The position numbers and the translations under genes are program-made. From an uncultured Gammaproteobacteria bacterium (GTDB lineage: Bacteria; Patescibacteriota; Patescibacteriia; Patescibacteriales; JAKAJF01), in contig CAZZBC010000002.1 in NCBI GenBank assembly GCA_964652175.1, positions 1-36,839 of the forward strand: a stretch of DNA of 36,839 nt. The letters run 5' to 3'. Positions 1,894-35,985 of this stretch are shown here, one piece after another. The notes under the pieces are model-generated. The model ran no database searches and was not told the DNA's origin. It worked only from the letters and a program-made list of their open reading frames with translations. The number at the start of each line of letters is the position of its first letter. Position 1 is the stretch's first letter.

Positions 1894-2352
1894 ATGGTAG
1901 AAATTAACAACAAGACCGAGAGTAAAATAAATTTGACCGTTGTCCGCCAAACCGCGGAAATTTTTTTAAAAAAACATAAAAAACAAAAGAACGAACTGTC
2001 CATCGCTTTTGTCGGAGATCGCCTTATCCGCCGGCTGAATGAAACATACCGCGGAATTGACAAGCCAACCGATGTTTTAACGTTTCCCGACTATCCGGCA
2101 ATACCCCCCGTCGTCATTCCCGTCCCGCCGACGGCGGGAGGAATCCAGAATTTGGGCGAAATAATAATTGATTACGCGCAGATTAAAAGGCAGGCGCGCG
2201 AACAAGGCCACTCGGCGCAAAAAGAACTCATATTTATTTTAGTCCACGGCCTTCTGCATCTTGTCGGCTACGATGACGCGACGGAAAAGGGGAGATTGGA
2301 GATGATAAGAAAAGGGGAGGAGTTTATTAAAAATTTAGAATATAGAATTTAG
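1894..2352 (+). CDS. ybeY: rRNA maturation endoribonuclease YbeY
   Basis: HGLLHLVGYDD metal-binding motif and TDVLTFP motif. I place the start at ATG 1894 (MVEINNK...) with GGAG 10 nt upstream; the track ORF starts at 1870 and overlaps the previous gene. The last codons run into an AT-rich TAGAAT repeat. Confidence 0.85.
   Translation: MVEINNKTESKINLTVVRQTAEIFLKKHKKQKNELSIAFVGDRLIRRLNETYRGIDKPTDVLTFPDYPAIPPVVIPVPPTAGGIQNLGEIIIDYAQIKRQAREQGHSAQKELIFILVHGLLHLVGYDDATEKGRLEMIRKGEEFIKNLEYRI
2113..2151. repeat. 39-nt palindromic element in frame inside ybeY (GTCATTCCCGTCCCGCCGACGGCGGGAGGAATCCAGAAT)
   Basis: It has the same GTCATTCCC...GGAATCCAGAAT ends as the elements at 15784 and 33126. It is translated VIPVPPTAGGIQN. 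Its length is a multiple of 3. Confidence 0.7.
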
Positions 2353-4156: not shown

Positions 4157-5416
4157 ATGTCAGACACGTTCAACACAACCGTTTTACGATACGGGCATCG
4201 TAACCATATAATTTTTTCTATGGCTGAAGTAAAACCAGCGGTGGAAACATTCGCTAAAATTAAAGTGATCGGCGTGGGCGGCTCAGGTGGAGCCGGCATT
4301 AACCGCATGGTGGAAGGCGGCGTGAAGGGCGTGGAATTTATCGCCGTCAATACCGATGTGCAAGCTCTACATTATAACAAGGCATCTAAGAAGCTGCATA
4401 TTGGAAAGTCAATCACCCGCGGCCTGGGCGCGGGCATGAATCCGGAATTGGGACGGCAGGCGGCTGAAGAATCGCAAAATGAAATTAGGGACATTTTGAA
4501 GGATACGGATATGGTTTTTGTGACCTGCGGCTTGGGCGGCGGAACGGGCACCGGCGCAGCGCCAATTGTGGCAGAGATCGCCCGCGACCTCGGCGCCTTG
4601 ACCGTGGCGGTGGTGACCAAACCTTTTTCTTTTGAAGGAGCGCAAAGGAAAAATATCGCCGAAAGAGGTTTTATGGAGCTTGCCGACAAGGTGGACACTA
4701 TCATTACCATACCTAACGACAAGTTACTTCAAGTTATAGACAAGAAGACTTCTTTATTGGACGCCTTCGGGGTGGTTGATGAAGTTTTGCGTCAAGGCGT
4801 GCAGGGCATCGCCGAACTCATTACCGTGCCCGGGCTTATTAATGTTGATTTTTCCGATGTTAAGGCGGTTATGGCCAATGCCGGTTCAGCGTTAATGGGC
4901 ATCGGCCAGGCCTCGGGCGAGAATAAGGCAATAGAAGCCGCGAAAGCGGCGGTTAATTCTCCCCTGTTGGAAATATCCATTGAAGGCGCGAGAGGAATAT
5001 TATTTACCATTACCGGCGGTCCCAATTTGGCCATGAATGAAGTTAATGAAGCGGCTAAAGTAATTACCGCTTCCGCCGACGAGGATGCCAAAATTATTTT
5101 TGGCGCGGTAATTAACGATAAAATGAAAGATGAGGTTAAAGTTACGGTGGTGGCGACCGGTTTTGACAATAAAATAAGCAGGGACAGGGACGCGGTTTCG
5201 GCCGAAAGAACTTATACCCCCAACGCTTTTATCGCCGGCGGGGACAAAAAAGAGGAAAGAGGCGGCGCCAAAGGACTGGTTCAGGAAAAAAAGAAAAGCA
5301 AAATTTCTCCCCTAAAAGCCGCCCAGGCCGAACCGGCGGCCGCTAAAAAAGCAATAACCGAAGAAGAAGATGATGAATTAGGCATCCCGGCGTTCATTCG
5401 GAAGAAGATGATGTAA
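4157..5416 (+). CDS. ftsZ: Cell division GTPase FtsZ
   Basis: GVGGSGGAGINRM and GLGGGTGTGAAP tubulin signature motifs, with a conserved C-terminal peptide DELGIPAFIRKK. An alternative, more typical start is ATG 4220 (MAEVKPAVE...). Confidence 0.92.
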   Translation: MSDTFNTTVLRYGHRNHIIFSMAEVKPAVETFAKIKVIGVGGSGGAGINRMVEGGVKGVEFIAVNTDVQALHYNKASKKLHIGKSITRGLGAGMNPELGRQAAEESQNEIRDILKDTDMVFVTCGLGGGTGTGAAPIVAEIARDLGALTVAVVTKPFSFEGAQRKNIAERGFMELADKVDTIITIPNDKLLQVIDKKTSLLDAFGVVDEVLRQGVQGIAELITVPGLINVDFSDVKAVMANAGSALMGIGQASGENKAIEAAKAAVNSPLLEISIEGARGILFTITGGPNLAMNEVNEAAKVITASADEDAKIIFGAVINDKMKDEVKVTVVATGFDNKISRDRDAVSAERTYTPNAFIAGGDKKEERGGAKGLVQEKKKSKISPLKAAQAEPAAAKKAITEEEDDELGIPAFIRKKMM

Positions 5417-12003: not shown

Positions 12004-12172
12004 TTGTCATGCCGGTCTTGTCCTCTTGTCATTGCGGGCTTGACCCGCAATCCAGGAGCAAGTAGGAGGAACGAGAATATAAACAAAGCGGCAGTGAGCG
12101 TTAAGAACGTTAAATTAAATTTCATGTTTTTACGGCTCCCTCCTGGATCCCGGCTCGGTGGCCGGGATAACA
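12004..12172. repeat. Composite palindromic elements filling the prfB-comEC spacer
   Basis: TTGTCATGCCGG..., then TTGTCATTGCGGGCTTGACCCGCAATCCAGGA, and at 12139-12172 CTCCTGGATCCCGGCTCGGTGGCCGGGATAACAA. The end motifs (GTCAT..., ...ATCCAG, CTGGATCCC...) match those of the copies in gatA and the Wzy_C gene. Confidence 0.7.
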
Positions 12173-14353: not shown

Positions 14354-14390
14354 TTGAATTCTTAAAAGGATCCATTTAAGGGTTTGAATA

Positions 14391-14429
14391 CCCCGCCCCA
14401 GTTTGAAAAACTGGGGCGGGGTTTGTTTT
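14391..14429 (+). terminator. Strong rho-independent terminator after the pilin gene
   Basis: CCCCGCCCCAG / CTGGGGCGGGG 11-bp GC stem followed by TTTGTTTT. Confidence 0.85.
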
Positions 14430-14583: not shown

Positions 14584-16989
14584 ATGTTGAAGGAAAAACT
14601 AATCAAAATCTGCGGCCATATCATAGAGGCGAACATCTTGGCGATTATCTTCCTCGTTCCTGTTTATTTTTCTTTTTTAAAAGAAACCTACAACACCTTT
14701 GAACTTAATAAATTAGTTGTTTTCAGGGTTTTGCTCGCGTTGGCGATTGTTTTTTATGCGGCTAAGATATTTTTGGAAGGAAAAATAAATTATTTTGCCA
14801 AACCAAAATTTTTTTTGCTCGCGGTTTTAATAATCGCCGCTTTTGCCGCTTCAACCGTTCTTTCCATTCATCCCCAGTTGAGCCTATGGGGAAATTACGA
14901 ACGCCAACAGGGATTTTACAGTTTGATAAATTATTTATTATTTTTTATTTTACTCCTTTTTCATTTAAGAAGTTGGCAACAGGCGAGGAGAATTATCGCC
15001 ACAATAATATCCGCTTCGGCGTTGGTGTGTTTTTACGGTTTTTTGCAACATTTTAACATTGATTCGTTAAGCTGGAAGGAAGCCGCGCTTTACACCGGCC
15101 GTATTTTTTCCACGCTCGGCCAGCCGAATTTTTTGGGGCAATATTTAATAATGGTTTTGCCGTTGACGGTTTTCGCGGCCATTTTTATATTCAAAAGATT
15201 AATCAGCCGTTTTTTAGCCATTATTTTAATCGCCGCCCAGCTTGCCTGCCTTATCTTCACTTACAGCCGCGCCGCCTGGCTAGCGGTCTTGGCTTCACTC
15301 CTGACATTTATCCTTACTTATCTTTACGTGAAGAATTATAAAAGACTGTTGGCGGGTTTTCTCGCGTTTTGTTTTGTGGCGGGGAGTTTAATTATAATTT
15401 TAAATATTTCCCCCAAGCAAAATCCGAATGAAACCGTTAATATTTTTAGCAGGGCCAAAAGCATTTTTGATTTAAAAAGCGGTTCAAATAAAATACGTTT
15501 TTTTTATTGGCAGTCGGCGTGGAGCGAATTAAAAAGCGCGTCTTGGCAAAGAAAAATGTTCGGCTACGGCGGAGAGACCGAAGCGTCTATTTTTGTCAAG
15601 TATTACCGGCCGGAATGGGGCGTGTATGAAACCATCAATTCTTTTCCGGACCGGGCGCATAATGTTATTTTTGATATGCTTTTGCAGTTTGGTTTAGTTG
15701 GACTGACGGCAGTTGGTTTATTTTATTTTTTTATTATCAGAGAGGCGGTTAAATTTATTAGATTGTCCGAAAAATTTTTTCCCGTCATTCCCGCGAAAGC
15801 GGGAATTCAGAATTCTTCTGACATATCACCATCCTGGATCCCCGAGTCAAGCCCGAGGATGACAGAGGATGAGCCCGGAATGACAGAAAAATATTGGCTC
15901 CTCATTTTTCTCCTCGCCTCGCTCGCCGGCTATTTTGTCAATAATTTATTCAGCTTTTCTTTGACGGTCGGCTATGTTTATGTATTTGTTATTTTAGCGA
16001 TGGCATTGTTTATTGTTAACGGGGAAATTAAAAGAAAGGTGAACTTAAACAGGCTAAGTTATATCTCGCGCTTGCTTATTTGGCTGGCTTTGGCGGGTGC
16101 GAGCGGAGTGTTTGTTTATTATTATAATATTTTGCCGTTTGCCGCGGACTATTATTACATGAGAGCGAAAAAGGCGGAAGCGGCCGATTGCCGGCGGGTT
16201 TTAGATTATATTGACAAAGCCATAAACTTGAATTCGGTGAGCGATATTTACAAGAAGCGTTATATTTATCACGGCCTGAATTGTTTTTCCGCCGTTGGTT
16301 CAAAAGAAGATCAAAACGCTTTATACGGCAACATAATCTCCCGCGCCAATTCCATCGGCTGGCGCGAATACGAATTTGCCACTCTAATCAATATGGCGCA
16401 CGCCAAATCGCTTTTCGCTTTTTACATCAACCCCGTCTTTTACGCGGCGGCGGAGAAAGATTACGCCCGCATCATCGGCATTAACCCCTGGCTTACGGTC
16501 GGCTACCGCGACTTGGCGCGCCTACAGCTTTGGCAAGGGGATTATGACGGAGCCATCGCCAACCTTAAAAAAGCCATTGAAATTGTTCCGCCGCTTGACC
16601 ATCCTTATCTTAACAGCGACCATCGTGATGAAATTAAAAAAGAGCTTGTCAATCTATACGAATCGTTGGGGTTTTCTTACGCCCACAAAGAAGAATGGCA
16701 AACGGCGTTGAGTTATTACCATGAAGTTTTAAGGATTGATCCGCGTTATTTGCCGCTTTACAAAAGTGTTGCCGACGTTTATTACAGCCAAAGAGATTTT
16801 GACAAGGCGATTTGGTATAATAAAAGGGGAGCGGCGTTTAATCCCGCCGACTATAAATGGCCGCTGGCCATCGCCATACTTTACAAGGAAAGGGGCGATA
16901 AGGAAGCGGCCGTGGAATACGCCGCCAGCGCCTTGGTTTTGGCGCCGGAAAATAAACAAATTAAAGATTTTATCACTCAAATAAAATGA
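14584..16989 (+). CDS. O-antigen ligase/Wzy_C-family polytopic membrane protein fused to C-terminal TPR repeats
   Basis: About 12 TM spans. It carries the YSRAAWLA and DRAHNVIFDMLLQFGLVGL motifs typical of Wzy_C (WaaL/PilO/PglL-type) enzymes. The C-terminal 250 aa are TPR-like. Confidence 0.8.
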   Translation: MLKEKLIKICGHIIEANILAIIFLVPVYFSFLKETYNTFELNKLVVFRVLLALAIVFYAAKIFLEGKINYFAKPKFFLLAVLIIAAFAASTVLSIHPQLSLWGNYERQQGFYSLINYLLFFILLLFHLRSWQQARRIIATIISASALVCFYGFLQHFNIDSLSWKEAALYTGRIFSTLGQPNFLGQYLIMVLPLTVFAAIFIFKRLISRFLAIILIAAQLACLIFTYSRAAWLAVLASLLTFILTYLYVKNYKRLLAGFLAFCFVAGSLIIILNISPKQNPNETVNIFSRAKSIFDLKSGSNKIRFFYWQSAWSELKSASWQRKMFGYGGETEASIFVKYYRPEWGVYETINSFPDRAHNVIFDMLLQFGLVGLTAVGLFYFFIIREAVKFIRLSEKFFPVIPAKAGIQNSSDISPSWIPESSPRMTEDEPGMTEKYWLLIFLLASLAGYFVNNLFSFSLTVGYVYVFVILAMALFIVNGEIKRKVNLNRLSYISRLLIWLALAGASGVFVYYYNILPFAADYYYMRAKKAEAADCRRVLDYIDKAINLNSVSDIYKKRYIYHGLNCFSAVGSKEDQNALYGNIISRANSIGWREYEFATLINMAHAKSLFAFYINPVFYAAAEKDYARIIGINPWLTVGYRDLARLQLWQGDYDGAIANLKKAIEIVPPLDHPYLNSDHRDEIKKELVNLYESLGFSYAHKEEWQTALSYYHEVLRIDPRYLPLYKSVADVYYSQRDFDKAIWYNKRGAAFNPADYKWPLAIAILYKERGDKEAAVEYAASALVLAPENKQIKDFITQIK
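15784..15886. mobile_element. Palindromic element pair in frame inside the Wzy_C gene
   Basis: GTCATTCCCGCGAAAGCGGGAATTCAGAAT ... CTGGATCCCCGAGTCAAGCCCGAGGATGACAG is translated VIPAKAGIQNSSDISPSWIPESSPRMTEDEPGMT. It is near-identical to 33126-33180 in gatA. Confidence 0.8.
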
Positions 16990-17954
16990 ATAAATCCAGT
17001 TTGATTTTATTTTTTATTTTTCTCTTCGGCCTTATTATCGGCTCGTTTTTAAACGCGCTTATTTGGCGGTTGCGGGAGGAAATCCCCCTTGCCCCCTTTA
17101 AGCAAAGGGGGCAAGCGAACAAGTCCTCCTTGCATAAGGGGGATAAAGGGGGTTTAAGCGGGTTATTATTCGGCCGATCATATTGCCCGAAATGCCGCGC
17201 GCAGATTAAGTGGTACGACAATATTCCGCTTTTAAGTTTTATTATTTTGCGCGGCAAATGCCGGAGTTGCGGCCAGACGATTTCCTGGCAGTACCCTTTA
17301 GTAGAATTATTGGCGGGTATATTATTTGTGGCGGCTTTTTTTATTAAAGCGCAAAAATTATTCGTAAGCGATTATGAATTTTTAATTTTTAATTTTAAAT
17401 TTTTAATTGAGGTAGTTCGTGATTGGTTTTTAATTGCCGCGATGATTGTAATTTTTGTTTATGACCTTAGGTGGTATTTAATTTTGGACATTGTCACCTT
17501 GCCCTCGGCGGCCATTTTACTTGTTTTAAATTTAACACCGGTTGTTTTAAGTTGCCCGTCATGCTTTGATTGGCTTTCTTGGCCGACTTCTTTCCAGTGG
17601 CTGTGTTTTCAATGCGGCAACCAATTTCCCAATTTGTGGCTTTATCTCATTTCTGGTATAATAGGAGGTAGCTTTTTTCTTTTACAATTTATAATTTCGC
17701 GCGGCCGTTGGATCGGCGGGGGCGATATCCGGCTCGGGCTTTTAATAGGTCTGGCTTTGGGTTGGCCGGGCGTTTTAATGGCCATATTCTTGGCTTATTT
17801 CATGGGTTCAATCGTCGGTTTGGGTTTAATCGCCGCCGGCAAAAAGCGCTGGGGTTCGGCCGTTCCCTTCGGCGTATTTTTGTCCACAGCCACTATCATT
17901 GTTTTGTTTTTTGGAGAAGAGATTGTGAAGTGGTATTTTGGACTCTTTAATTAA
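16986..17954 (+). CDS. pilD: Prepilin peptidase (A24 family) PilD
   Basis: N-terminal CPKC...CRSC zinc motif and catalytic Asp motifs (VYDLRW and GGGDIRLGLL). Its ATGA start/stop overlaps the upstream gene. Confidence 0.88.
   Translation: MNKSSLILFFIFLFGLIIGSFLNALIWRLREEIPLAPFKQRGQANKSSLHKGDKGGLSGLLFGRSYCPKCRAQIKWYDNIPLLSFIILRGKCRSCGQTISWQYPLVELLAGILFVAAFFIKAQKLFVSDYEFLIFNFKFLIEVVRDWFLIAAMIVIFVYDLRWYLILDIVTLPSAAILLVLNLTPVVLSCPSCFDWLSWPTSFQWLCFQCGNQFPNLWLYLISGIIGGSFFLLQFIISRGRWIGGGDIRLGLLIGLALGWPGVLMAIFLAYFMGSIVGLGLIAAGKKRWGSAVPFGVFLSTATIIVLFFGEEIVKWYFGLFN
17079..17158. mobile_element. C-tract/G-tract hairpin modules A+B in frame inside pilD
   Basis: GAAATCCCCCTTGCCCCCTTTAAGCAAAGGGGGCAAG...TCCTCCTTGCATAAGGGGGATAAAGGGGGTTTAAGC matches the intergenic modules at 764-853. 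It is translated EIPLAPFKQRGQANKSSLHKGDKGGLS. Confidence 0.8.
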
Positions 17955-20155: not shown

Positions 20156-20204
20156 GAGATTCCCCCTAACCCCCTTTTAAAAAAGGGGGCGGATAAGAGA
20201 TAAA

Positions 20205-27098: not shown

Positions 27099-27803
27099 AT
27101 GCGAACATCGCGAATTTATATGCGAATACTGCAAATTGCGAATAATTTTAAAATCCCCCCAATCCCCTTTGTTAAAGGGGGTGAACGGGGCACGGCGCTT
27201 TTAATGACGTTGCTTATATTGTCGGGCATTTTGGTCGTAACTTTGGGAGCGGCAAGCTTGGTGGCGCAGGGAATTTTAATGGGCCGGACGCAGGCGCGGT
27301 CCACTAAAGCGTTTTTTGCCGCGGAAACGGGAGGAGAAAATGTTTTATGGGAAGTGAGAAAAAACGGCTACGTTCTGCCGGAACAAAATCAAGAGGATGT
27401 TTTCAACGGCGCTTTAAGCAACGGCGCCGTTTACTCCGTTGATTACGCGACCAGCAGCCCTTATGTGTATTTTACTTCCGACGGCTCTTACCGCCAGACC
27501 AGGCGCAGCGTGGAAATAGGGTTTGTCGGAGGCGTGGGAGGAGGAGCTCCTTGTGTTCCCGATTGCGCGAGCAAGCTATGCGGCGATAACGACGGTTGCG
27601 GCGGAACTTGTCCTGCCGATTGTTCGGCCGTTCCCGGCTGCCGCGATTTGGCTCCGTCCAATTCCGGCATCGTGTCCGGCAGCTGCTGCTCCGGCAATTG
27701 TTACCAATGCGACAGCGGCTATCAATGGGACGGGGCGGATTGCGTTTTATCTGTGTCCGGTTGCGTGTTCGGTTCCATAATATTTCCTTGCGCCCTTCAA
27801 TAA
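27099..27803 (+). CDS. PilX-like pilus-associated protein with Cys-rich C-terminal domain
   Basis: The hydrophobic segment GTALLMTLLILSGILVVTLGAASLV is followed by a pilX-N-like region. The C-terminus has CVPDCASKLCGDNDGCGGTCPADC and CCSGNCYQC. The first 35 codons are repeat-derived, and ATG 27204 is an alternative start. Confidence 0.6.
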   Translation: MRTSRIYMRILQIANNFKIPPIPFVKGGERGTALLMTLLILSGILVVTLGAASLVAQGILMGRTQARSTKAFFAAETGGENVLWEVRKNGYVLPEQNQEDVFNGALSNGAVYSVDYATSSPYVYFTSDGSYRQTRRSVEIGFVGGVGGGAPCVPDCASKLCGDNDGCGGTCPADCSAVPGCRDLAPSNSGIVSGSCCSGNCYQCDSGYQWDGADCVLSVSGCVFGSIIFPCALQ

Positions 27804-28927: not shown

Positions 28928-31664
<2,737 letters not shown>

Positions 31665-31786: not shown

Positions 31787-32080
31787 ATGCAATTATCCAA
31801 AGAACAAATACAACACATTGCCAATCTCGCGCGGCTGGAATTGACGAACGAAGAATTGGAGAAGTACGGCGGGCAATTGTCGGCCGTTTTGGATTATATT
31901 GACCAGCTAAAAGAAGTGGACGTTAGCGGCGCGGAGCCGACGGCGCAGGTGACCGGATTGCAAAATATTTTTCGCGAGGATAAGGTTGAAAATTGGAATG
32001 AAGAGGAAATTGAGGCGGCGTTGCGCGACGCGCCGGCGCGCGAGCATCGGTTTATAAAAGTGAAGAGAGTGATTGAATAG
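31787..32080 (+). CDS. gatC: Glu/Asp-tRNA amidotransferase subunit C
   Basis: 97 aa. The N-terminus (IQHIANLARLELTNEELEKYGGQLSAVLDYIDQL) is the canonical GatC pattern. Confidence 0.9.
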   Translation: MQLSKEQIQHIANLARLELTNEELEKYGGQLSAVLDYIDQLKEVDVSGAEPTAQVTGLQNIFREDKVENWNEEEIEAALRDAPAREHRFIKVKRVIE

Positions 32081-32147: not shown

Positions 32148-32284
32148 TGTCATGCCGGGCTCCCGTTCGCTTCGCCTTGCCTACTCACAACTTTTCGTCC
32201 GTCAATAGAGCTCGCGCGCGGTAAATAGCGATTATCTATTGAAATGTGGCGAAGCAAGGCGGGCGGGTGACCCGGCATCCAGGG
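32148..32284 (-). mobile_element. About 137-nt MITE-like element in the gatC-gatA spacer (inverse orientation relative to the copy inside gatA)
   Basis: Its reverse complement begins CCCTGGATGCCGGGTCACCCGCCCGCCTTGCTTCGCC and ends GGCGAAGCGAACGGGAGCCCGGCATGACAA. These ends match those of 33172-33311, but the cores differ. Confidence 0.75.
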
Positions 32285-32378
32285 TAAGTCAGTAGGTTTG
32301 TTGATATTAAGGTTAGTTTTTAAGATAAAACGTTCGTATCGTTCCCATGGATCCCGGCTCTGCGGCCGGGATGATAAA

Positions 32379-34052
32379 ATGTTTATGCAGTTAAATGAAT
32401 TAACAATTAAGCAAGCCGGAAAAACGTTGGAGAAAGGCGAAATTACTTCGGTGGAACTGACCAGAGCTTGTTTGGCGCGGATAAAAGAGATTAACGGAAA
32501 GTTGAATGCTTGTTTGACGGTTTGCGAGAAAGAGGCGCTGGAAGAGGCGAGAATGGCGGATAAGAGAAAGAAGATGACGGTTGCCCGCGAAGGGCGGGGG
32601 CGAGCCCTGCCCCTACTGGGGATACCGTATTTAGCGAAAGATAACATTTTGACACGCGGCGTTCGCGCGACAGCGGCGTCAAAAATTTTAGAAAATTATA
32701 TCGCCCCTTACGACGCGACAGTAATTAGTAAACTGCGGCAAGCCGGCGCCGTGTTACTGGGTAAAACTAATTTGGATGAATTCGGGCACGGCGCTTCCAC
32801 GGAAAATTCCGTCTTCGGCCCGACGCGCAATCCGCACGATTTGGAGCGCGTTGCCGGCGGTTCATCCGGCGGGTCGGCTGCGGCCGTGGCGGCGGATATG
32901 TGCGTATTCGCTTTGGGCACGGATACAGGAGGATCAACGAGGTATCCGGCCGGCTTTTGCGGCGTTGTCGGCCTGAAGCCGACTTACGGCCGGGCTTCGC
33001 GCTTCGGACTTATGGCTATGACCAGTTCAACCGACGTACCAGGCGTGATTGCTAAAAACGTCCAAGACGCGGAAATTGTGCTAAAGACGATTGAGGGGGT
33101 TGATAAATATGATGCCACGACAACCGTCATTCCCGCGGAAGCGGGAATCCAGAATTTGTCTAGCATATCACCGTCCTGGATCCCCGGGTCACCCGCCCGC
33201 CTTGCTTCGCCCGATTTTAACGGACAAACAGATTTTATCGCTCATGATTTTACTAACGGATTAAAGGTCATAAACGAGCAAGGCGAAGCGGGCGGGAGCC
33301 CGAGGATGACAAATAGTTTAAAGGGCGTGAAGATCGGCTTGCCAAAGGAATATTTTGTTGAAGGGATTATGCCGGAAGTAAAAGAAGCGATTGAAAAAGT
33401 GATTGCAAAATTCAAGGAACTCGGCGCGGAATTTATTGAAGTGAATTTGCCGCATACTAAATACGGCATCCCGGTTTATTATATTATTACTCCTTCGGAG
33501 ATTAGTTCCAATCTGGCGCGCTTTGATGGCATCAAGTACGGTTACAGCGAAATAGAAAAAGACAAAGACCGCGCGCATACGCTCATGAAGATTTATACCA
33601 AAAGCCGCGGCGTTGGGTTCGGGTCGGAAGCCAAAAGAAGAATTATGCTTGGAACCTACGCTCTGTCCGCCGGTTATTATGACGCTTATTATTTAAGGGC
33701 GCAAAGGGTGAGAACGATCATTAAAAGGGAAATGGACGAGGTTTTGGAAAAAGTAGACTGCCTTTTAACGCCGACTTCGCCGCATGTCGCCTTTAAAATA
33801 GGAACACAAAACAATGATCCATTAAAAAATTATTTGGAAGATATTTTTATGTCTCCGGCGTCGTTAGCGGGTCTGCCGGCGATGTCGGTTCCTTGCGGTT
33901 TTGCCAAGTCGCATAAAAGTGACAAGCATCTCAAGCATCTGCCGATCGGCATGCAGTTAATTGGCAAAAGGTTCGGAGAGGAAATATTATTTAAAGCGGG
34001 GCAAGCTTACGAGGAAGCGACGGAATTGCATAAGAGAAAACCGGGAATATGA
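32379..34052 (+). CDS. gatA: Glu/Asp-tRNA amidotransferase subunit A
   Basis: Amidase signature GGSSGGSAAAV. It lies downstream of gatC. I place the start at ATG 32379 (MFMQLNELTIKQA), because the 27 codons upstream in the track ORF are repeat-derived. It contains a 62-codon element at 33126-33311. Confidence 0.9.
   Translation: MFMQLNELTIKQAGKTLEKGEITSVELTRACLARIKEINGKLNACLTVCEKEALEEARMADKRKKMTVAREGRGRALPLLGIPYLAKDNILTRGVRATAASKILENYIAPYDATVISKLRQAGAVLLGKTNLDEFGHGASTENSVFGPTRNPHDLERVAGGSSGGSAAAVAADMCVFALGTDTGGSTRYPAGFCGVVGLKPTYGRASRFGLMAMTSSTDVPGVIAKNVQDAEIVLKTIEGVDKYDATTTVIPAEAGIQNLSSISPSWIPGSPARLASPDFNGQTDFIAHDFTNGLKVINEQGEAGGSPRMTNSLKGVKIGLPKEYFVEGIMPEVKEAIEKVIAKFKELGAEFIEVNLPHTKYGIPVYYIITPSEISSNLARFDGIKYGYSEIEKDKDRAHTLMKIYTKSRGVGFGSEAKRRIMLGTYALSAGYYDAYYLRAQRVRTIIKREMDEVLEKVDCLLTPTSPHVAFKIGTQNNDPLKNYLEDIFMSPASLAGLPAMSVPCGFAKSHKSDKHLKHLPIGMQLIGKRFGEEILFKAGQAYEEATELHKRKPGI
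33126..33311 (+). mobile_element. 186-nt nested palindromic/MITE insertion in frame inside gatA
   Basis: GTCATTCCCGCGGAAGCGGGAATCCAGAAT...CTGGATCCCCGGGTCACCCGCCCGCCTTGCTTCGCC...GGCGAAGCGGGCGGGAGCCCGAGGATGACAA. It is exactly 62 codons long. It lies between the conserved DKYDATT and VKIGLPKEYF blocks. Confidence 0.8.
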
Positions 34053-35011: not shown

Positions 35012-35764
35012 ATGTATAATAAAAAAATTATTATTTTTGCCATAATCGGAATAATAAGCATTTTGGCGCTATCGGCTTGTTCTCTGAAAAAATCAATCGA
35101 TAAGGATAGCGATAAAACCGGAATAGCCGCCAATCAACCGGATACGGAAGAAGAAAAGATTAAAAGAGATAATGCTGACACAGTTAAAAACGCGCGAAAC
35201 GGCGCGGTTAAGAAAGTGAGGGCGGTTGATGACGCCGACCATGTCAGGGGAGACAAAAACGCGCCGGTTCAAATAATAATCTACAGCGATTTTGAATGCC
35301 CTTATTGCGCCAAGTTTACTCGGACGATTGAACAGGCGGCAGAAGAATTTAAGGAGAAAGTGGCGGTTGTCTACCGGCATTTTCCTTTAACTTTCCATAA
35401 GCGTGCTACATTGGCTGCGATTGCTTCCGAATGCGCTTCGGGGCAAGGAAAATTTTGGGAAATGCATGATAAAATTTTTGCCGATAATGTTGTCGGCCGT
35501 TTGAGCGCGGATCAACTTAAAAAAGATGCGGCTGATTTAGGCTTGGACGCCACCGAATTTAACCAATGTTTGGCCACGGAAAAATATAAAGAAAAAGTGG
35601 AGGCGCAGACGGTTGAGGGCAAAAGTGCCGGCATTATCGGCACGCCGACTAGTTTCGTAAACGGCGAGATAGTCATCGGCGCTTATCCAATGGATGATTT
35701 TACCGACAGCGCCGGCGTGGAGAGAAAAGGGTTGAGGAGTATTATTCAAAGATATTTAAAATAG
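35012..35764 (+). CDS. DsbA-family thiol:disulfide oxidoreductase lipoprotein
   Basis: Lipobox LALSAC and the thioredoxin active site FECPYC. The GTPTSFVNG motif contains the cis-Pro loop. Confidence 0.82.
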   Translation: MYNKKIIIFAIIGIISILALSACSLKKSIDKDSDKTGIAANQPDTEEEKIKRDNADTVKNARNGAVKKVRAVDDADHVRGDKNAPVQIIIYSDFECPYCAKFTRTIEQAAEEFKEKVAVVYRHFPLTFHKRATLAAIASECASGQGKFWEMHDKIFADNVVGRLSADQLKKDAADLGLDATEFNQCLATEKYKEKVEAQTVEGKSAGIIGTPTSFVNGEIVIGAYPMDDFTDSAGVERKGLRSIIQRYLK

Positions 35765-35765
35765 C

Positions 35766-35864
35766 TCCCACAAATCAACAAATCAATTCACGAATTCACA
35801 AATATAATAATTACAACTAATAAATATTTGTATATTTGTTGTTAGATTTGTAGATTTGTGGGAG
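35766..35864. mobile_element. Full-length CAAAT-family MITE-like element
   Basis: TCCCACAAATCAACAAATC...GATTTGTAGATTTGTGGGA are near-perfect terminal inverted repeats. It abuts the TAG stop of the DsbA-like gene. Confidence 0.75.
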
Positions 35865-35895
35865 GTATTGAAAATCTAAAATCTAAAATGTTTTA

Positions 35896-35985
35896 GGAAG
35901 GGTCGCCTAGTGGTCGATGGCGCCGCCTTGGAAAGGCGGTAGGGTGTAACAGCCCTCGAGGGTTCGACTCCCTCCCCTTCCGCCA
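35896..35985 (+). tRNA. tRNA-Ser (anticodon GGA) with long variable arm and encoded CCA
   Basis: Hand-folded. The acceptor stem is GGAAGGG/CCCTTCC, the anticodon stem CCGCC/GGCGG and the anticodon loop TTGGAAA. The variable arm is 18 nt, the T arm is GAGGG-TTCGACT-CCCTC, and the 3' end is GCCA. Confidence 0.9.

What the first reader, a model, noticed from the sequence alone, without database searches (positions are those of the whole stretch)
32148..33311. Essential gatA carries a 62-codon nested MITE insertion, with a sister copy in inverse orientation just upstream
Inside gatA, 33126-33311 is exactly 186 nt and lies between the conserved DKYDATT and VKIGLPKEYF blocks. It consists of a GTCATTCCCGCGGAAGCGGGAATCCAGAAT hairpin followed by a CTGGATCCCCGGG...CCCGAGGATGACAA element. 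The interior of the second element holds a further TIR pair, GGTCACCCGCCCGCCTTGCTTCGCC / GGCGAAGCGGGCGGGAGCCC, around a unique core.

The copy in the Wzy_C gene (15784-15886) has the same outer parts but lacks the inner element, which shows nesting. A second copy of the inner element lies at 32148-32284 in the gatC-gatA spacer on the opposite strand. Its TIRs are conserved but its core is different. A related hairpin at 32346-32378 ends at the gatA ATG and provides the only purine-rich stretch upstream of it.

The amidase signature GGSSGGSAAAV is intact. The situation parallels Rickettsia palindromic elements, which are known to insert in frame into protein genes. The sequences here are unrelated to RPEs.
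Basis: partly seen in the sequence, partly recalled or inferred. Interest (0 to 1): 0.65.

Follow-up and report, generated by a model that had tools for sequence, protein, structure and literature searches.

The report
Known hairpin repeat inserted inside gatA
A groundwater Patescibacteria gatA gene carries a 62-codon, in-frame insertion built from a hairpin repeat already known from Neisseria (dRS3/NTS) and Rickettsia (RPE-6), so it is a new host and a large example of a known phenomenon, not a new kind of element.

Summary
gatA (32379-34052) carries exactly 186 nt (33126-33311) between the DKYDATT and VKIGLPKEYF blocks. None of 120 Patescibacteria homologues has this insert: the loop is typically 15 aa and here it is 65 aa. 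Only the gatA frame, one of six, is open. Contigs from four groundwater samples cover both junctions.

The interpretation needs correcting. The hairpin CGTCATTCCCGCGGAAGCGGGAATCCAG is a CGTC-1 REP. That family equals Neisseria dRS3/NTS and Rickettsia RPE-6, which are already known to sit in frame in Rickettsia conorii genes and to encode the same VIPAKAGI peptide. The claim "unrelated to RPEs" is therefore wrong.

The insert is an inverted dimer of two such units with the tags outermost. This is the arrangement that brackets small GIY-YIG (Ssn-like) nuclease genes in other Patescibacteria, so it looks like a gene-less derivative of that unit.

Nesting is supported. A 105-nt palindrome splits the TCA|AG loop of the second unit. 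Unfilled loops exist in the Wzy copy and in L180. A third copy of the palindrome's arms, in another contig, sits in what reads as a tRNA-Val D-loop.

Mobilisation by Ssn is inferred, and no ssn gene lies in the window. This is a new member of a known kind, of moderate to low interest.

The parts
31787..32080 (+). gatC, upstream gene of the operon
   Evidence: ORF. The ligA-gatC-gatA order is shared with L121 and L122, where the gene carries Pfam GatC.
32148..32282 (+). Long CGTC-type hairpin unit in the gatC-gatA spacer: TGTC tag, outer stem ATGCCGGG/CCCGGCAT, CCAG tail. It is the sister, on the opposite strand, of the long unit inside gatA.
   Evidence: I1, I5; fold -61 kcal/mol.
32162..32267 (-). 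Inner palindromic element, 106 nt, inside the loop of the spacer unit
   Evidence: its arms are 37/39 identical to those of the gatA copy and its core is about 57% identical; the arm pattern occurs only twice in the window.
32347..32376 (-). Short CGTC-like hairpin with a degenerate tag (TATC), stem ATCCCGGC/GCCGGGAT. With 32148-32282 it forms an inverted dimer, tags outermost, that fills 229 of the 298 nt of the gatC-gatA spacer.
   Evidence: In the relative L121 the spacer is only 6 nt.
32379..34052 (+). gatA, 557 aa, intact amidase-signature enzyme. The homologue-like start is the second ATG at 32385.
   Evidence: E 6e-134 to Aquifex GatA; model TM 0.84-0.86 to GatA chains.
32583..32616 (-). 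Second, small in-frame GC-rich hairpin pair in the N-terminal variable loop of gatA (..VAREGRGRALP..). The minus strand starts GTAG. It adds 7 aa compared with 103 of 120 homologues.
   Evidence: fold; loop-length distribution.
33126..33311 (+). The 186-nt (62-codon) in-frame insertion in gatA
   Evidence: open in 1 of 6 frames; contigs from four samples cover both junctions; loop 65 aa against a modal 15; pLDDT 32-48, no regular secondary structure.
33125..33152 (+). Unit A: a canonical CGTC-1 REP / NTS-like hairpin, CGTC-ATTCCCGC-GGAA-GCGGGAAT-CCAG
   Evidence: NTS consensus, 1 mismatch; family definition; the exact 27-mer occurs in at least 120 loci from many phyla.
33153..33175 (+). 23-nt dimer spacer, homologous to the spacer of the Wzy copy (19/23 identical)
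33176..33311 (-). Unit B: a CGTC-type unit on the minus strand (TGTCAT-CCTCGGG...CCCGGGG-ATCCAG) whose TCAAG loop is split by the inner element
   Evidence: Unfilled equivalents are 15834-15864 in the window and the right-end hairpin of L180.
33192..33296 (+). Inner palindromic element, 105 nt (35 codons), CCCGCCCGCC...GCGGGCGGG, inserted at TCA|AG
   Evidence: A third copy of its arms, without the CGTC outer stem, is in a contig of run X3.
15783..15885 (+). Sister dimer in the Wzy_C/TPR ORF (14584-16989), 34 codons in frame. It comprises unit A (15783-15810), the spacer (15811-15833), a short unit B with an unfilled TCAAG loop (15834-15864) and a partial duplicated right end (15865-15885).
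   Evidence: (D10).
2112..2148 (+). Single CGTC-type unit with a longer stem, in frame in ybeY (VIPVPPTAGGIQ), same reading frame as the other two intragenic copies
   Evidence: about 11 extra residues compared with Aquifex YbeY; the loop length varies among structures.
12027..12172 (.). Intergenic inverted dimer of CGTC-type units, 12027-12055 (+) and 12143-12172 (-), with compensatory stem changes and the CTTGA loop

Best explanation
The 186 nt inside gatA are a gene-less inverted dimer of CGTC-tagged REP hairpins. This is the repeat family known as Neisseria dRS3/NTS, Ssn-related motifs and Rickettsia RPE-6.

Unit A is a canonical 28-nt CGTC-1 hairpin. Unit B lies on the other strand, 23 nt away. 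The tags are outermost and the CCAG tails face each other. A separate 105-nt palindrome later landed in the TCA|AG loop of unit B, or was already there when the dimer was copied.

The dimer has the same end architecture as hairpin-ssn-hairpin units, in which a roughly 95-aa GIY-YIG nuclease gene is bracketed by these hairpins in other Patescibacteria. It is therefore best read as a non-autonomous derivative of that unit. The inference is that it is copied through a single-stranded DNA intermediate with the help of an Ssn-type nuclease encoded elsewhere in the genome.

The copy survived in gatA for three reasons. It landed in the most length-variable surface linker of the protein, its length is a multiple of three, and it lies in the only one of six frames without stops. 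It is therefore simply translated as a disordered 62-residue loop.

What is shown: the identity of the repeat, the dimer architecture, the nesting, the frame constraint, the presence of the insert in four samples, and the absence of the insert in 119 relatives.

What is inferred: translation of the insert, a neutral or tolerated effect on GatCAB, and mobilisation by Ssn. Transposition of these repeats has not been demonstrated even in the published work.
For: Repeat identity:
- Unit A has the CGTC tag, an 8-bp stem starting AT, a 4-nt loop and a CCA tail, as defined for CGTC-1.
- It fits the NTS consensus with 1 mismatch, against 0 expected by chance.
- The exact 27-mer is present in at least 120 loci from many phyla, including Patescibacteria and a Rickettsia endosymbiont. 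It often occurs as +/- pairs 13-90 nt apart.
- In-frame CGTC-1 copies encoding VIPAKAGI are listed for R. conorii.

Insertion:
- The PDB alignments break at the site.
- In 120 homologues this loop is modally 15 aa and at most 34 aa; here it is 65 aa.
- The model has pTM 0.81, with the insert at pLDDT 32-48 between helix 228-238 and strand 318-322. It superposes on GatA chains at TM 0.84-0.86.
- Only one of six frames is open.
- Contigs from four independent samples cover both junctions and none shows the empty site.

Link to the autonomous unit:
- GIY-YIG genes of Paceibacterota, Saccharibacteria, Uhrbacteria and others are flanked by these hairpins with the tags outward.
- Of 61 loci with full flanks, 20 have a motif upstream, 27 downstream and 14 on both sides.
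- The L180 right-end hairpin CCCCGGGTCAAGCCCGAGG is the unfilled form of unit B.

Nesting:
- The Wzy copy and L180 have a continuous TCAAG loop.
- A contig in run X3 carries the inner arms without the CGTC stem, between sequences that reconstruct a tRNA-Val D-arm.
Against: - No ssn-like GIY-YIG gene lies in the 36.8-kb window, and the rest of the genome could not be examined.
- The strict published SRM search expression finds no hit in the window. Each canonical copy fails at one position.
- The Wzy copy has lost the C after the palindrome, which the Ssn paper reports as the nucleotide most crucial for SsnA binding.
- Only 3 residues of ordinary linker remain around the insert. The event was therefore not a clean insertion into a 15-aa loop; about 12 codons were lost or overwritten.
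- No RNA or peptide data exist, so translation is inferred only from frame and length.
- The inner element was found nowhere in the genome or metagenome collections, so its family and mobility rest on three copies.
Confidence: 0.72

Rival explanations
1. The long hairpin is the original form of unit B, and the short form seen in the Wzy copy is a deletion derivative. On this reading there is no nested second element, only palindrome shortening.
For: The two long units (32148-32282 and 33176-33311) share both the outer stem and the inner arms, so they could descend from one long ancestor. Long palindromes are prone to deletion (general knowledge; discussed in PMC3733652).
Against: - Short units with the uninterrupted CTTGA/TCAAG loop are the common form at the ends of GIY-YIG genes in other Patescibacteria (L132, L180) and in the window (12027-12055, 15834-15864).
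- The inner arms occur in an X3 contig without any CGTC outer stem, at the same TCA|(G)AG junction.
Confidence: 0.15
2. The insert, or its inner 105 nt, is removed before the protein is made or just after. Candidate routes are an intron-like RNA element, an intein or translational bypassing. GatA would then be of normal length.
For: - The inner element also sits in what reads as a tRNA gene D-loop, where an unremoved insert would be expected to destroy function.
- The element folds into a very stable hairpin: -70.8 kcal/mol for 33120-33320.
Against: - No Rfam family, introns included, matches anywhere in gatA.
- 62 aa is far below the size of any intein, and no intein end residues are present (sequence read directly).
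- Both the whole insert (186 nt) and the inner part (105 nt) are multiples of three and open only in the gatA frame. Selection would demand this only if they are translated.
- The intergenic sister copy is 106 nt.
Confidence: 0.04
3. Assembly artefact: the repeat caused a mis-join or collapse, and the real gatA is uninterrupted or interrupted by something larger.
For: - The 27-nt hairpin is hyper-abundant in the metagenomes, at word depth 290-1500 against 3-9 for the flanks.
- Logan contigs break inside it, and at least one other locus shares 33128-33162.
Against: - In four independent samples one contig runs from the gatA 5' half into the hairpin, and another runs from the hairpin through the whole long unit into the gatA 3' half, at matching depth.
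- No contig joins 33125 to 33312.
- The repeated stretch is only about 35 nt, shorter than a read.
- The joined product is an intact in-frame gene.
Confidence: 0.03
4. This gatA copy is a decaying or redundant gene, and a second, clean gatA or direct GlnRS/AsnRS makes it dispensable. The insertion would then say nothing about tolerance in an essential gene.
For: Only 36.8 kb of the genome is available. Essentiality is assumed from general knowledge of GatCAB, not tested.
Against: - Every column that is invariant in 120 homologues is kept, including Lys87, Ser162/163 and Ser186 of the amidase signature.
- The operon context ligA-gatC-gatA is conserved.
- The frame is open over 557 codons.
Confidence: 0.05

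Closest known systems
CGTC-1 REPs (Di Nocera, De Gregorio & Rocco 2013, PMC3733652), which include Neisseria dRS3 and Rickettsia conorii RPE-6
   Same: - The tag, 8-bp AT-initiated stem, 4-nt loop and CCA tail are the same.
- The units are organised as inverted dimers with 20-100-nt spacers.
- In-frame copies occur inside known genes and encode the same peptide, VIPAKAGI.
   Different: - The host phylum, Patescibacteria, is not among the five phyla reported in that paper.
- One unit of the dimer carries a 105-nt palindrome in its loop, giving a 62-aa insert. This is within the 43-82 aa range reported only for repeat clusters.
- The stems of several window copies differ by compensatory changes.
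NTS / Ssn-related motifs and the SsnA GIY-YIG ssDNA nuclease (Nat Commun 2025, PMC11893778)
   Same: - Unit A fits CGTCATTCCCGCGMAVGCGGGAATCYRG with one mismatch.
- Hairpin-ssn-hairpin units with the same hairpins exist in Patescibacteria.
   Different: - No ssn gene was seen in the window.
- The strict SRM expression fails at one position in each copy.
- The paper describes ssDNA cleavage and control of transformation, not transposition, and does not treat intragenic copies or Patescibacteria.
REPINs / REP doublets mobilised by RAYT tyrosine transposases (GTAG REPs)
   Same: Two inverted REP hairpins with a short spacer behave as one non-autonomous unit. There is no target-site duplication. 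A single-copy gene flanked by the same hairpins is the presumed mobilising gene.
   Different: The tag is different (CGTC, not GTAG) and so is the associated enzyme family (GIY-YIG, not a Y1 transposase). Di Nocera et al. found no dedicated transposase for CGTC REPs.
Rickettsia RPE-1 (Ogata et al., long palindromic elements in protein genes; cited from PMC3733652)
   Same: A palindromic element of about 100-150 nt is inserted in frame in housekeeping genes and is compatible with a functional protein.
   Different: No sequence relation to RPE-1 was tested. The relation shown here is to the short RPE-6 class. The 105-nt inner element has no match in any collection searched.

Membership tests
CGTC-1 REP (dRS3 / RPE-6 class) | Unpaired 5' tag CGTC (or TGTC/CCTC) | tested here: met
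   CGTC at 33125-33128 and 15783-15786. TGTC on 12027, 32148 and the minus-strand units.
CGTC-1 REP (dRS3 / RPE-6 class) | 8-bp stem beginning with AT, 4-nt loop, short CCA tail | tested here: met
   ATTCCCGC-GGAA/GAAA-GCGGGAAT-CCA. Unit B and other window copies have 7-9-bp stems and 5-6-nt loops, closer to the other CGTC families.
CGTC-1 REP (dRS3 / RPE-6 class) | Repeated in the genome, commonly as inverted dimers | tested here: inconclusive
   Nine units, four of them in dimers, lie in 36.8 kb. The whole-genome copy number is unknown. Other copies sharing 33128-33162 exist in the same samples.
NTS / Ssn-related motif | Fits CGTCATTCCCGCGMAVGCGGGAATCYRG with at most 1 mismatch (the paper's counting rule) | tested here: met
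   Two hits with 1 mismatch each, against 0 expected.
NTS / Ssn-related motif | Fits the degenerate SRM expression HGTCWYN(0-2)YYVSBRHN(0-5)WNVSBRGN(0-2)RNCYNB | tested here: not met
   0 hits in the window. The gatA copy fails at the first loop base (G) and the Wzy copy fails at the tail (ATTCAG).
NTS / Ssn-related motif | C immediately 3' of the palindrome (reported as most crucial for SsnA binding) | tested here: met
   The gatA unit A has GGGAAT-C. The Wzy copy has T instead.
NTS / Ssn-related motif | An ssn (single-domain GIY-YIG) gene in the same genome, flanked by the motif | not testable with these tools
   None in the window and the rest of the genome is not available. The arrangement is present in other Patescibacteria. 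Homology of those proteins to N. meningitidis SsnA itself was not tested. NCBIfam has no specific model.
MITE (classical) | Terminal inverted repeats plus a target-site duplication | tested here: not met
   The ends are inverted hairpin units, but no direct repeat flanks any of the three copies (ACAACC|..|AATAGT; TTTCCC|..|GAAAAA; ACTTAT|..|GGTAAG).
Intein | At least ~130 aa with N-terminal Cys/Ser/Thr and C-terminal His-Asn plus a following nucleophile | tested here: not met
   The insert is 62 aa, starts VIPAE and ends SPRMT-N.
Group I / II intron or other curated RNA family | Match to an Rfam covariance model | tested here: not met
   The only hit in the window is tRNA-Ser at 35896-35982.

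The most novel reading that the evidence does not exclude
The 105-nt inner palindrome (CCCGCCCGCC...GCGGGCGGG) may be a separate, undescribed small mobile element with a sequence- or structure-specific target, GGTCA^(G)AGC. That target is offered both by the loop of CGTC hairpins and by a tRNA D-loop. Because it also sits in a tRNA-Val gene, it may have to be tolerated or processed at the RNA level.

More broadly, REP-type hairpins of several families may be a routine source of loop expansions in Patescibacteria housekeeping proteins. GatA homologues show such peptides in four variable loops.
Probability: 0.3. Interest if true: 0.55.

Novelty: new member of a known kind. Interest (0 to 1): 0.35.

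Why it matters
The finding extends in-frame "protein-coding palindromes", known from Rickettsia, to the Candidate Phyla Radiation. It ties them to the same hairpin family, dRS3/NTS/RPE-6, for which a binding nuclease (Ssn) was recently found.

The window offers a compact natural series. The dimer occurs intergenic, in a membrane-protein loop and in an essential enzyme. The hairpin loop occurs both filled and unfilled. This series could be used to test whether Ssn-type nucleases actually mobilise these repeats, which is still an open point.

For annotation, it is a reminder that odd GC-rich peptides such as VIPAKAGIQ in Patescibacteria proteins are repeat-derived.

Tried and rejected
- Literature search for the encoded peptides (VIPAKAGIQ, SFPRKRES and others) found nothing. 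A search for the DNA words then led to the Ssn paper.
- My first guess, that the flanks GTCAT/ATCCAG define a new unit, was replaced by the published CGTC-1/NTS definition.
- The window position 4417-4451, listed with the repeat family (D6), is the conserved FtsZ GLGAGxNPE motif and not an element.
- The first structure prediction, with 20 sequences, was useless (pLDDT 47.5). It was repeated with 120 sequences.
- Exact-pattern scans for the inner arm in genome contigs and metagenome contigs found nothing. Scans for the tRNA/inner-element junction also found nothing.
- The 62-aa insert peptide has no relative in the 5.8-billion protein set.
- The exact gatA product is not on record for contig look-up.
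- No RNA run holds gatA.
- The frame statistics of the 27-mer inside long open frames of other genomes were not used as evidence. High-GC genomes have long spurious open frames, and all frames occur there.
- The same reading frame in the three intragenic window copies is explained, for the two dimers, by only one frame being open. For the ybeY single unit it is compatible with chance.
- NCBIfam and PDB gave no specific family name for the Patescibacteria GIY-YIG proteins.
- No promoter-like or terminator-like site lies in the gatC-gatA spacer.
Full report
**What is there**

The window reads as a Patescibacteria (CPR) contig. The best GatA relatives are only 60-68% identical by BLASTP local alignment. 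They are annotated as Patescibacteria, Falkowbacteria or Parcubacteria. The sequence recurs in four groundwater metagenome runs from one study.

gatA is 32379-34052, 557 aa. It follows ligA and gatC, as in its relatives L121 and L122.

Alignment to solved GatA structures is excellent on both sides (E 6e-134 to Aquifex 3h0l). It breaks between query residues ~254 and ~309.

In an alignment of 120 homologues, the linker between DATT and LKG is 11-18 aa in 109 sequences, with a mode of 15 and a maximum of 34. Here it is 65 aa. Every column invariant across the 120 sequences is kept, including the amidase-signature Lys87, Ser162/163 and Ser186.

A model built on the 120-sequence alignment has pTM 0.81 and superposes on GatA chains at TM 0.84-0.86. 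Residues 254-308 have pLDDT 32-48 and almost no secondary structure. They sit between helix 228-238 and strand 318-322. The insert therefore lies in the most length-variable linker of the protein. Surface exposure itself could not be computed, because model coordinates are not returned.

**Is it real DNA?**

Logan contigs from four independent samples run from the gatA 5' half into the first hairpin. Others run from that hairpin through the long hairpin into the gatA 3' half, at matching depth. No contig shows the empty site.

Contigs break inside the 27-nt hairpin because that word is hyper-abundant in these metagenomes, at depth 290-1500 against 3-9 for the flanks. Contig data drop rare variants, so minority empty-site alleles are not excluded.

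**Anatomy**

- Unit A, 33125-33152: CGTC-ATTCCCGC-GGAA-GCGGGAAT-CCAG.
- A 23-nt spacer follows.
- Unit B, 33176-33311, lies on the other strand: TGTCAT-CCTCGGG...CCCGGGG-ATCCAG. The two units therefore form an inverted dimer with the tags outermost and the CCAG tails facing inwards.
- The loop of unit B, TCA|AG, is split by a 105-nt palindrome at 33192-33296 (CCCGCCCGCC...GCGGGCGGG).
- The whole region folds at -70.8 kcal/mol.

The Wzy_C/TPR ORF (14584-16989) holds the same dimer at 15783-15885. Unit A differs at two positions and the spacer is 19/23 identical. Unit B has an uninterrupted TCAAG loop, and a partial duplicate of the right end follows. The copy is 34 codons, read in the same frame.

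The gatC-gatA spacer holds a third dimer on the opposite strand. It consists of a long unit at 32148-32282, whose inner element is 32162-32267 (106 nt), then 64 nt, then a short unit at 32347-32376. This dimer fills 229 of the 298 nt of the spacer. In L121 the same spacer is 6 nt.

The arms of the two inner copies are 37/39 identical and the cores are about 57% identical.

Further units lie in frame in ybeY (2112-2148) and as an intergenic dimer (12027-12055 and 12143-12172). Across these copies the stems differ by compensatory changes: TCCCGC/GCGGGA, TGCGGG/CCCGCA, CCCGGC/GCCGGG and GCCGGG/CCCGGC. The tag and tail stay constant.

**Frame**

The 186-nt insert is open in one of six frames, and so is the 102-nt Wzy copy. 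The whole insert (186 nt), the inner element (105 nt) and the outer dimer (81 nt) are all multiples of three. The intergenic inner copy is 106 nt. This is the pattern expected if only translatable insertions survive in genes.

**What it is**

A full-text search for the DNA words led to two papers.

Di Nocera et al. 2013 (PMC3733652) define CGTC-tagged REPs. Family 1 has a CGTC/TGTC tag, an 8-bp stem beginning AT, a 4-nt loop and a CCA tail. The units are mostly arranged as inverted dimers with 20-100-nt spacers. The authors equate CGTC-1 with Neisseria dRS3 and R. conorii RPE-6. They report many intragenic copies, with clusters encoding 43-82 aa. Their supplementary table lists in-frame R. conorii CGTC-1 copies that encode VIPAKAGI, SFPRKRES and DSRFRRND. 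VIPAKAGI is the peptide in the Wzy ORF here, and VIPAEAGI is the one in GatA.

The 2025 Ssn paper (PMC11893778) redefines the longer form as NTS, CGTCATTCCCGCGMAVGCGGGAATCYRG. It shows that the 94-aa GIY-YIG protein SsnA binds it as ssDNA and cuts a few nucleotides upstream. It notes that NTS-ssnA-NTS looks like an insertion sequence.

Both canonical window copies fit NTS with one mismatch, against 0 expected. They miss the paper's stricter SRM expression by one position each.

The exact 27-mer occurs in at least 120 loci of the species-representative genome set. These span Proteobacteria, Chloroflexi, Planctomycetes, Nitrospirae, several Patescibacteria and a Rickettsia endosymbiont, and the copies often form +/- pairs. 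In Patescibacteria loci these pairs are intergenic dimers of the same architecture.

The statement that the sequences are unrelated to RPEs is therefore wrong for the short RPE-6 class.

**Candidate mobilising gene**

No GIY-YIG ORF lies in the window, by Pfam on the small ORFs and by an HMM built from three GIY-YIG ORFs run against all ORFs of at least 55 aa.

A scan of the genome collection with that alignment returned 80 loci. In Paceibacterota, Saccharibacteria, Uhrbacteria, Yonathbacteria, Doudnabacteria and other Patescibacteria, the roughly 95-aa gene is bracketed by these hairpins with the tags outward. The hairpins lie 10-100 nt from the start and stop codons. Of 61 loci with full flanks, 20 have a motif upstream, 27 downstream and 14 on both sides.

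In L139 a dimer like the gatA one sits upstream of the gene.

L180 is a pseudogenised copy. Its right end, CTGGACCCCGGGTCAAGCCCGAGGTGACA, is the unfilled form of gatA unit B.

The gatA dimer thus looks like the two ends of such a unit without the gene. Whether Ssn proteins move these repeats is not shown anywhere. That step is inference by analogy with REP/RAYT.

**Nesting**

1. Unfilled TCAAG loops occur in the Wzy copy, at 12027-12055 and in L132 and L180.
2. The junction is the same, TCA|...|AG, in both filled units.
3. A 7.2-kb contig of run X3 (depth 10.8) carries the inner arms around a longer core (127 nt between the matched arms, against 60 here). It lacks the CGTC outer stem. Its flanks are ...GGGTTTATAGCTCAGTTGGTCA and GAGCGCCACGTTGAC... 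Read directly, these flanks are the 5' part of a tRNA-Val(GAC) with the element in the D-loop.

The rival view, that the long form is ancestral and the short forms are deletions, is not excluded. I give it about 0.15.

The inner element has no match in the genome or metagenome collections, in the 202 loci fetched, or as a peptide.

**Rivals for the insert as a whole**

- Removal at the RNA or protein level is unlikely. There is no Rfam hit, the insert is too short for an intein, and the frame and length constraints point to translation. No RNA data exist to test it.
- An assembly artefact is unlikely.
- A redundant or decaying gatA cannot be excluded without the genome, but nothing in the sequence suggests it.

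One irregularity remains. Only T...NS is left of the usual ~15-aa linker. The event therefore removed or overwrote about 12 codons, or the linker was itself repeat-derived beforehand. Several homologues carry other hairpin-derived peptides at this and three other loops.

**Verdict**

This is a real, well-delimited feature: a 62-codon in-frame insertion in gatA. It is made of a CGTC-type REP dimer (dRS3/NTS/RPE-6 family) with a nested 105-nt palindrome, and it has two sister dimers nearby.

The kind of event is already known from Rickettsia and other bacteria. What is new is:
- the host phylum;
- the size of the insert and its nesting;
- the explicit parallel with hairpin-bracketed GIY-YIG genes in Patescibacteria.

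I rate it a new member of a known kind, with interest about 0.35.

Noticed in passing
Run X3, Logan contig of 7223 nt (seen through window 33187-33216 and 33277-33296): The inner-element arms are flanked by GGGTTTATAGCTCAGTTGGTCA and GAGCGCCACGTTGAC. This reads as a tRNA-Val(GAC) gene with a palindromic element of roughly 175 nt sitting in its D-loop. Whether that tRNA is functional or processed is unknown.
   Followed up: partly
L129, L130, L132, L139, L155, L167, L180, L189 (around 1400-1850 in each): In several Patescibacteria lineages, GIY-YIG genes of about 95 aa are bracketed by CGTC/NTS-like hairpins with the tags outward. The L180 copy is a pseudogene with internal stops. In L139 a full hairpin dimer sits upstream of the gene.
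   Followed up: yes
L122 5236-5618, compared with window 35764-35982: In the closest gatA relative, a 91-aa GIY-YIG gene of a different subtype sits between the dsbA-like gene and tRNA-Ser. A duplicated fragment of the tRNA 5' end lies upstream of it, as if the gene had inserted into the tRNA gene. The window has the tRNA-Ser without this gene.
   Followed up: partly
window 29786-29827 and 31162-31197 (inside ligA, 29472-31664): AT-rich short repeats of the kind found between genes in this window (families D1/D2) lie in frame inside ligA. They encode ..[11 protein letters not shown].. and ..[15 protein letters not shown]...
   Followed up: no
window 17088-17115 (inside the prepilin peptidase ORF, 16986-17954): A 12-bp-stem hairpin, CTTGCCCCCTTTAAGCAAAGGGGGCAAG, lies in frame (..IPLAPFKQRGQ..). 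It belongs to a CCCCC...GGGGG repeat family that is also found at 816-850, 20158-20192 and 27151-27185. Pfam shows the A24 N-terminal domain stretched by about 25 residues there.
   Followed up: partly
window 32583-32616 (gatA N-terminal loop): A second small GC-rich hairpin pair lies in frame in gatA (..VAREGRGRALP.., +7 aa compared with 103 of 120 homologues). Its minus strand begins GTAG, so it may be a GTAG-type REP. Related peptides (NVGAIHELP, GQGQALP) occur at the same loop in other homologues.
   Followed up: partly
Alignment A4 of 120 Patescibacteria GatA proteins; L121 2385-2480: Four variable loops of GatA carry peptides that look hairpin-derived in a minority of homologues, for example PPQPPFVKGGEN, SPLNKGE and PNPLLDKERG. 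In L121 a different GC-rich palindrome underlies a 34-aa version of the same loop. Repeat-driven loop expansion seems common in this phylum.
   Followed up: partly
window 33128-33162, runs X1, X3, X4: A second locus in the same samples, at similar depth, shares unit A plus AATTTGTCT and then continues AACTAAGCGAAGGTGGATCCCCGCTTTCGC. This is probably another dimer of the family in the same genome.
   Followed up: no
window 14390-14422: A perfect 15-bp-stem hairpin, ACCCCGCCCCAGTTTGAAAAACTGGGGCGGGGT, lies between the pilin-like gene and the Wzy-like gene. It is followed by TTTGTTT and is possibly a terminator.
   Followed up: no
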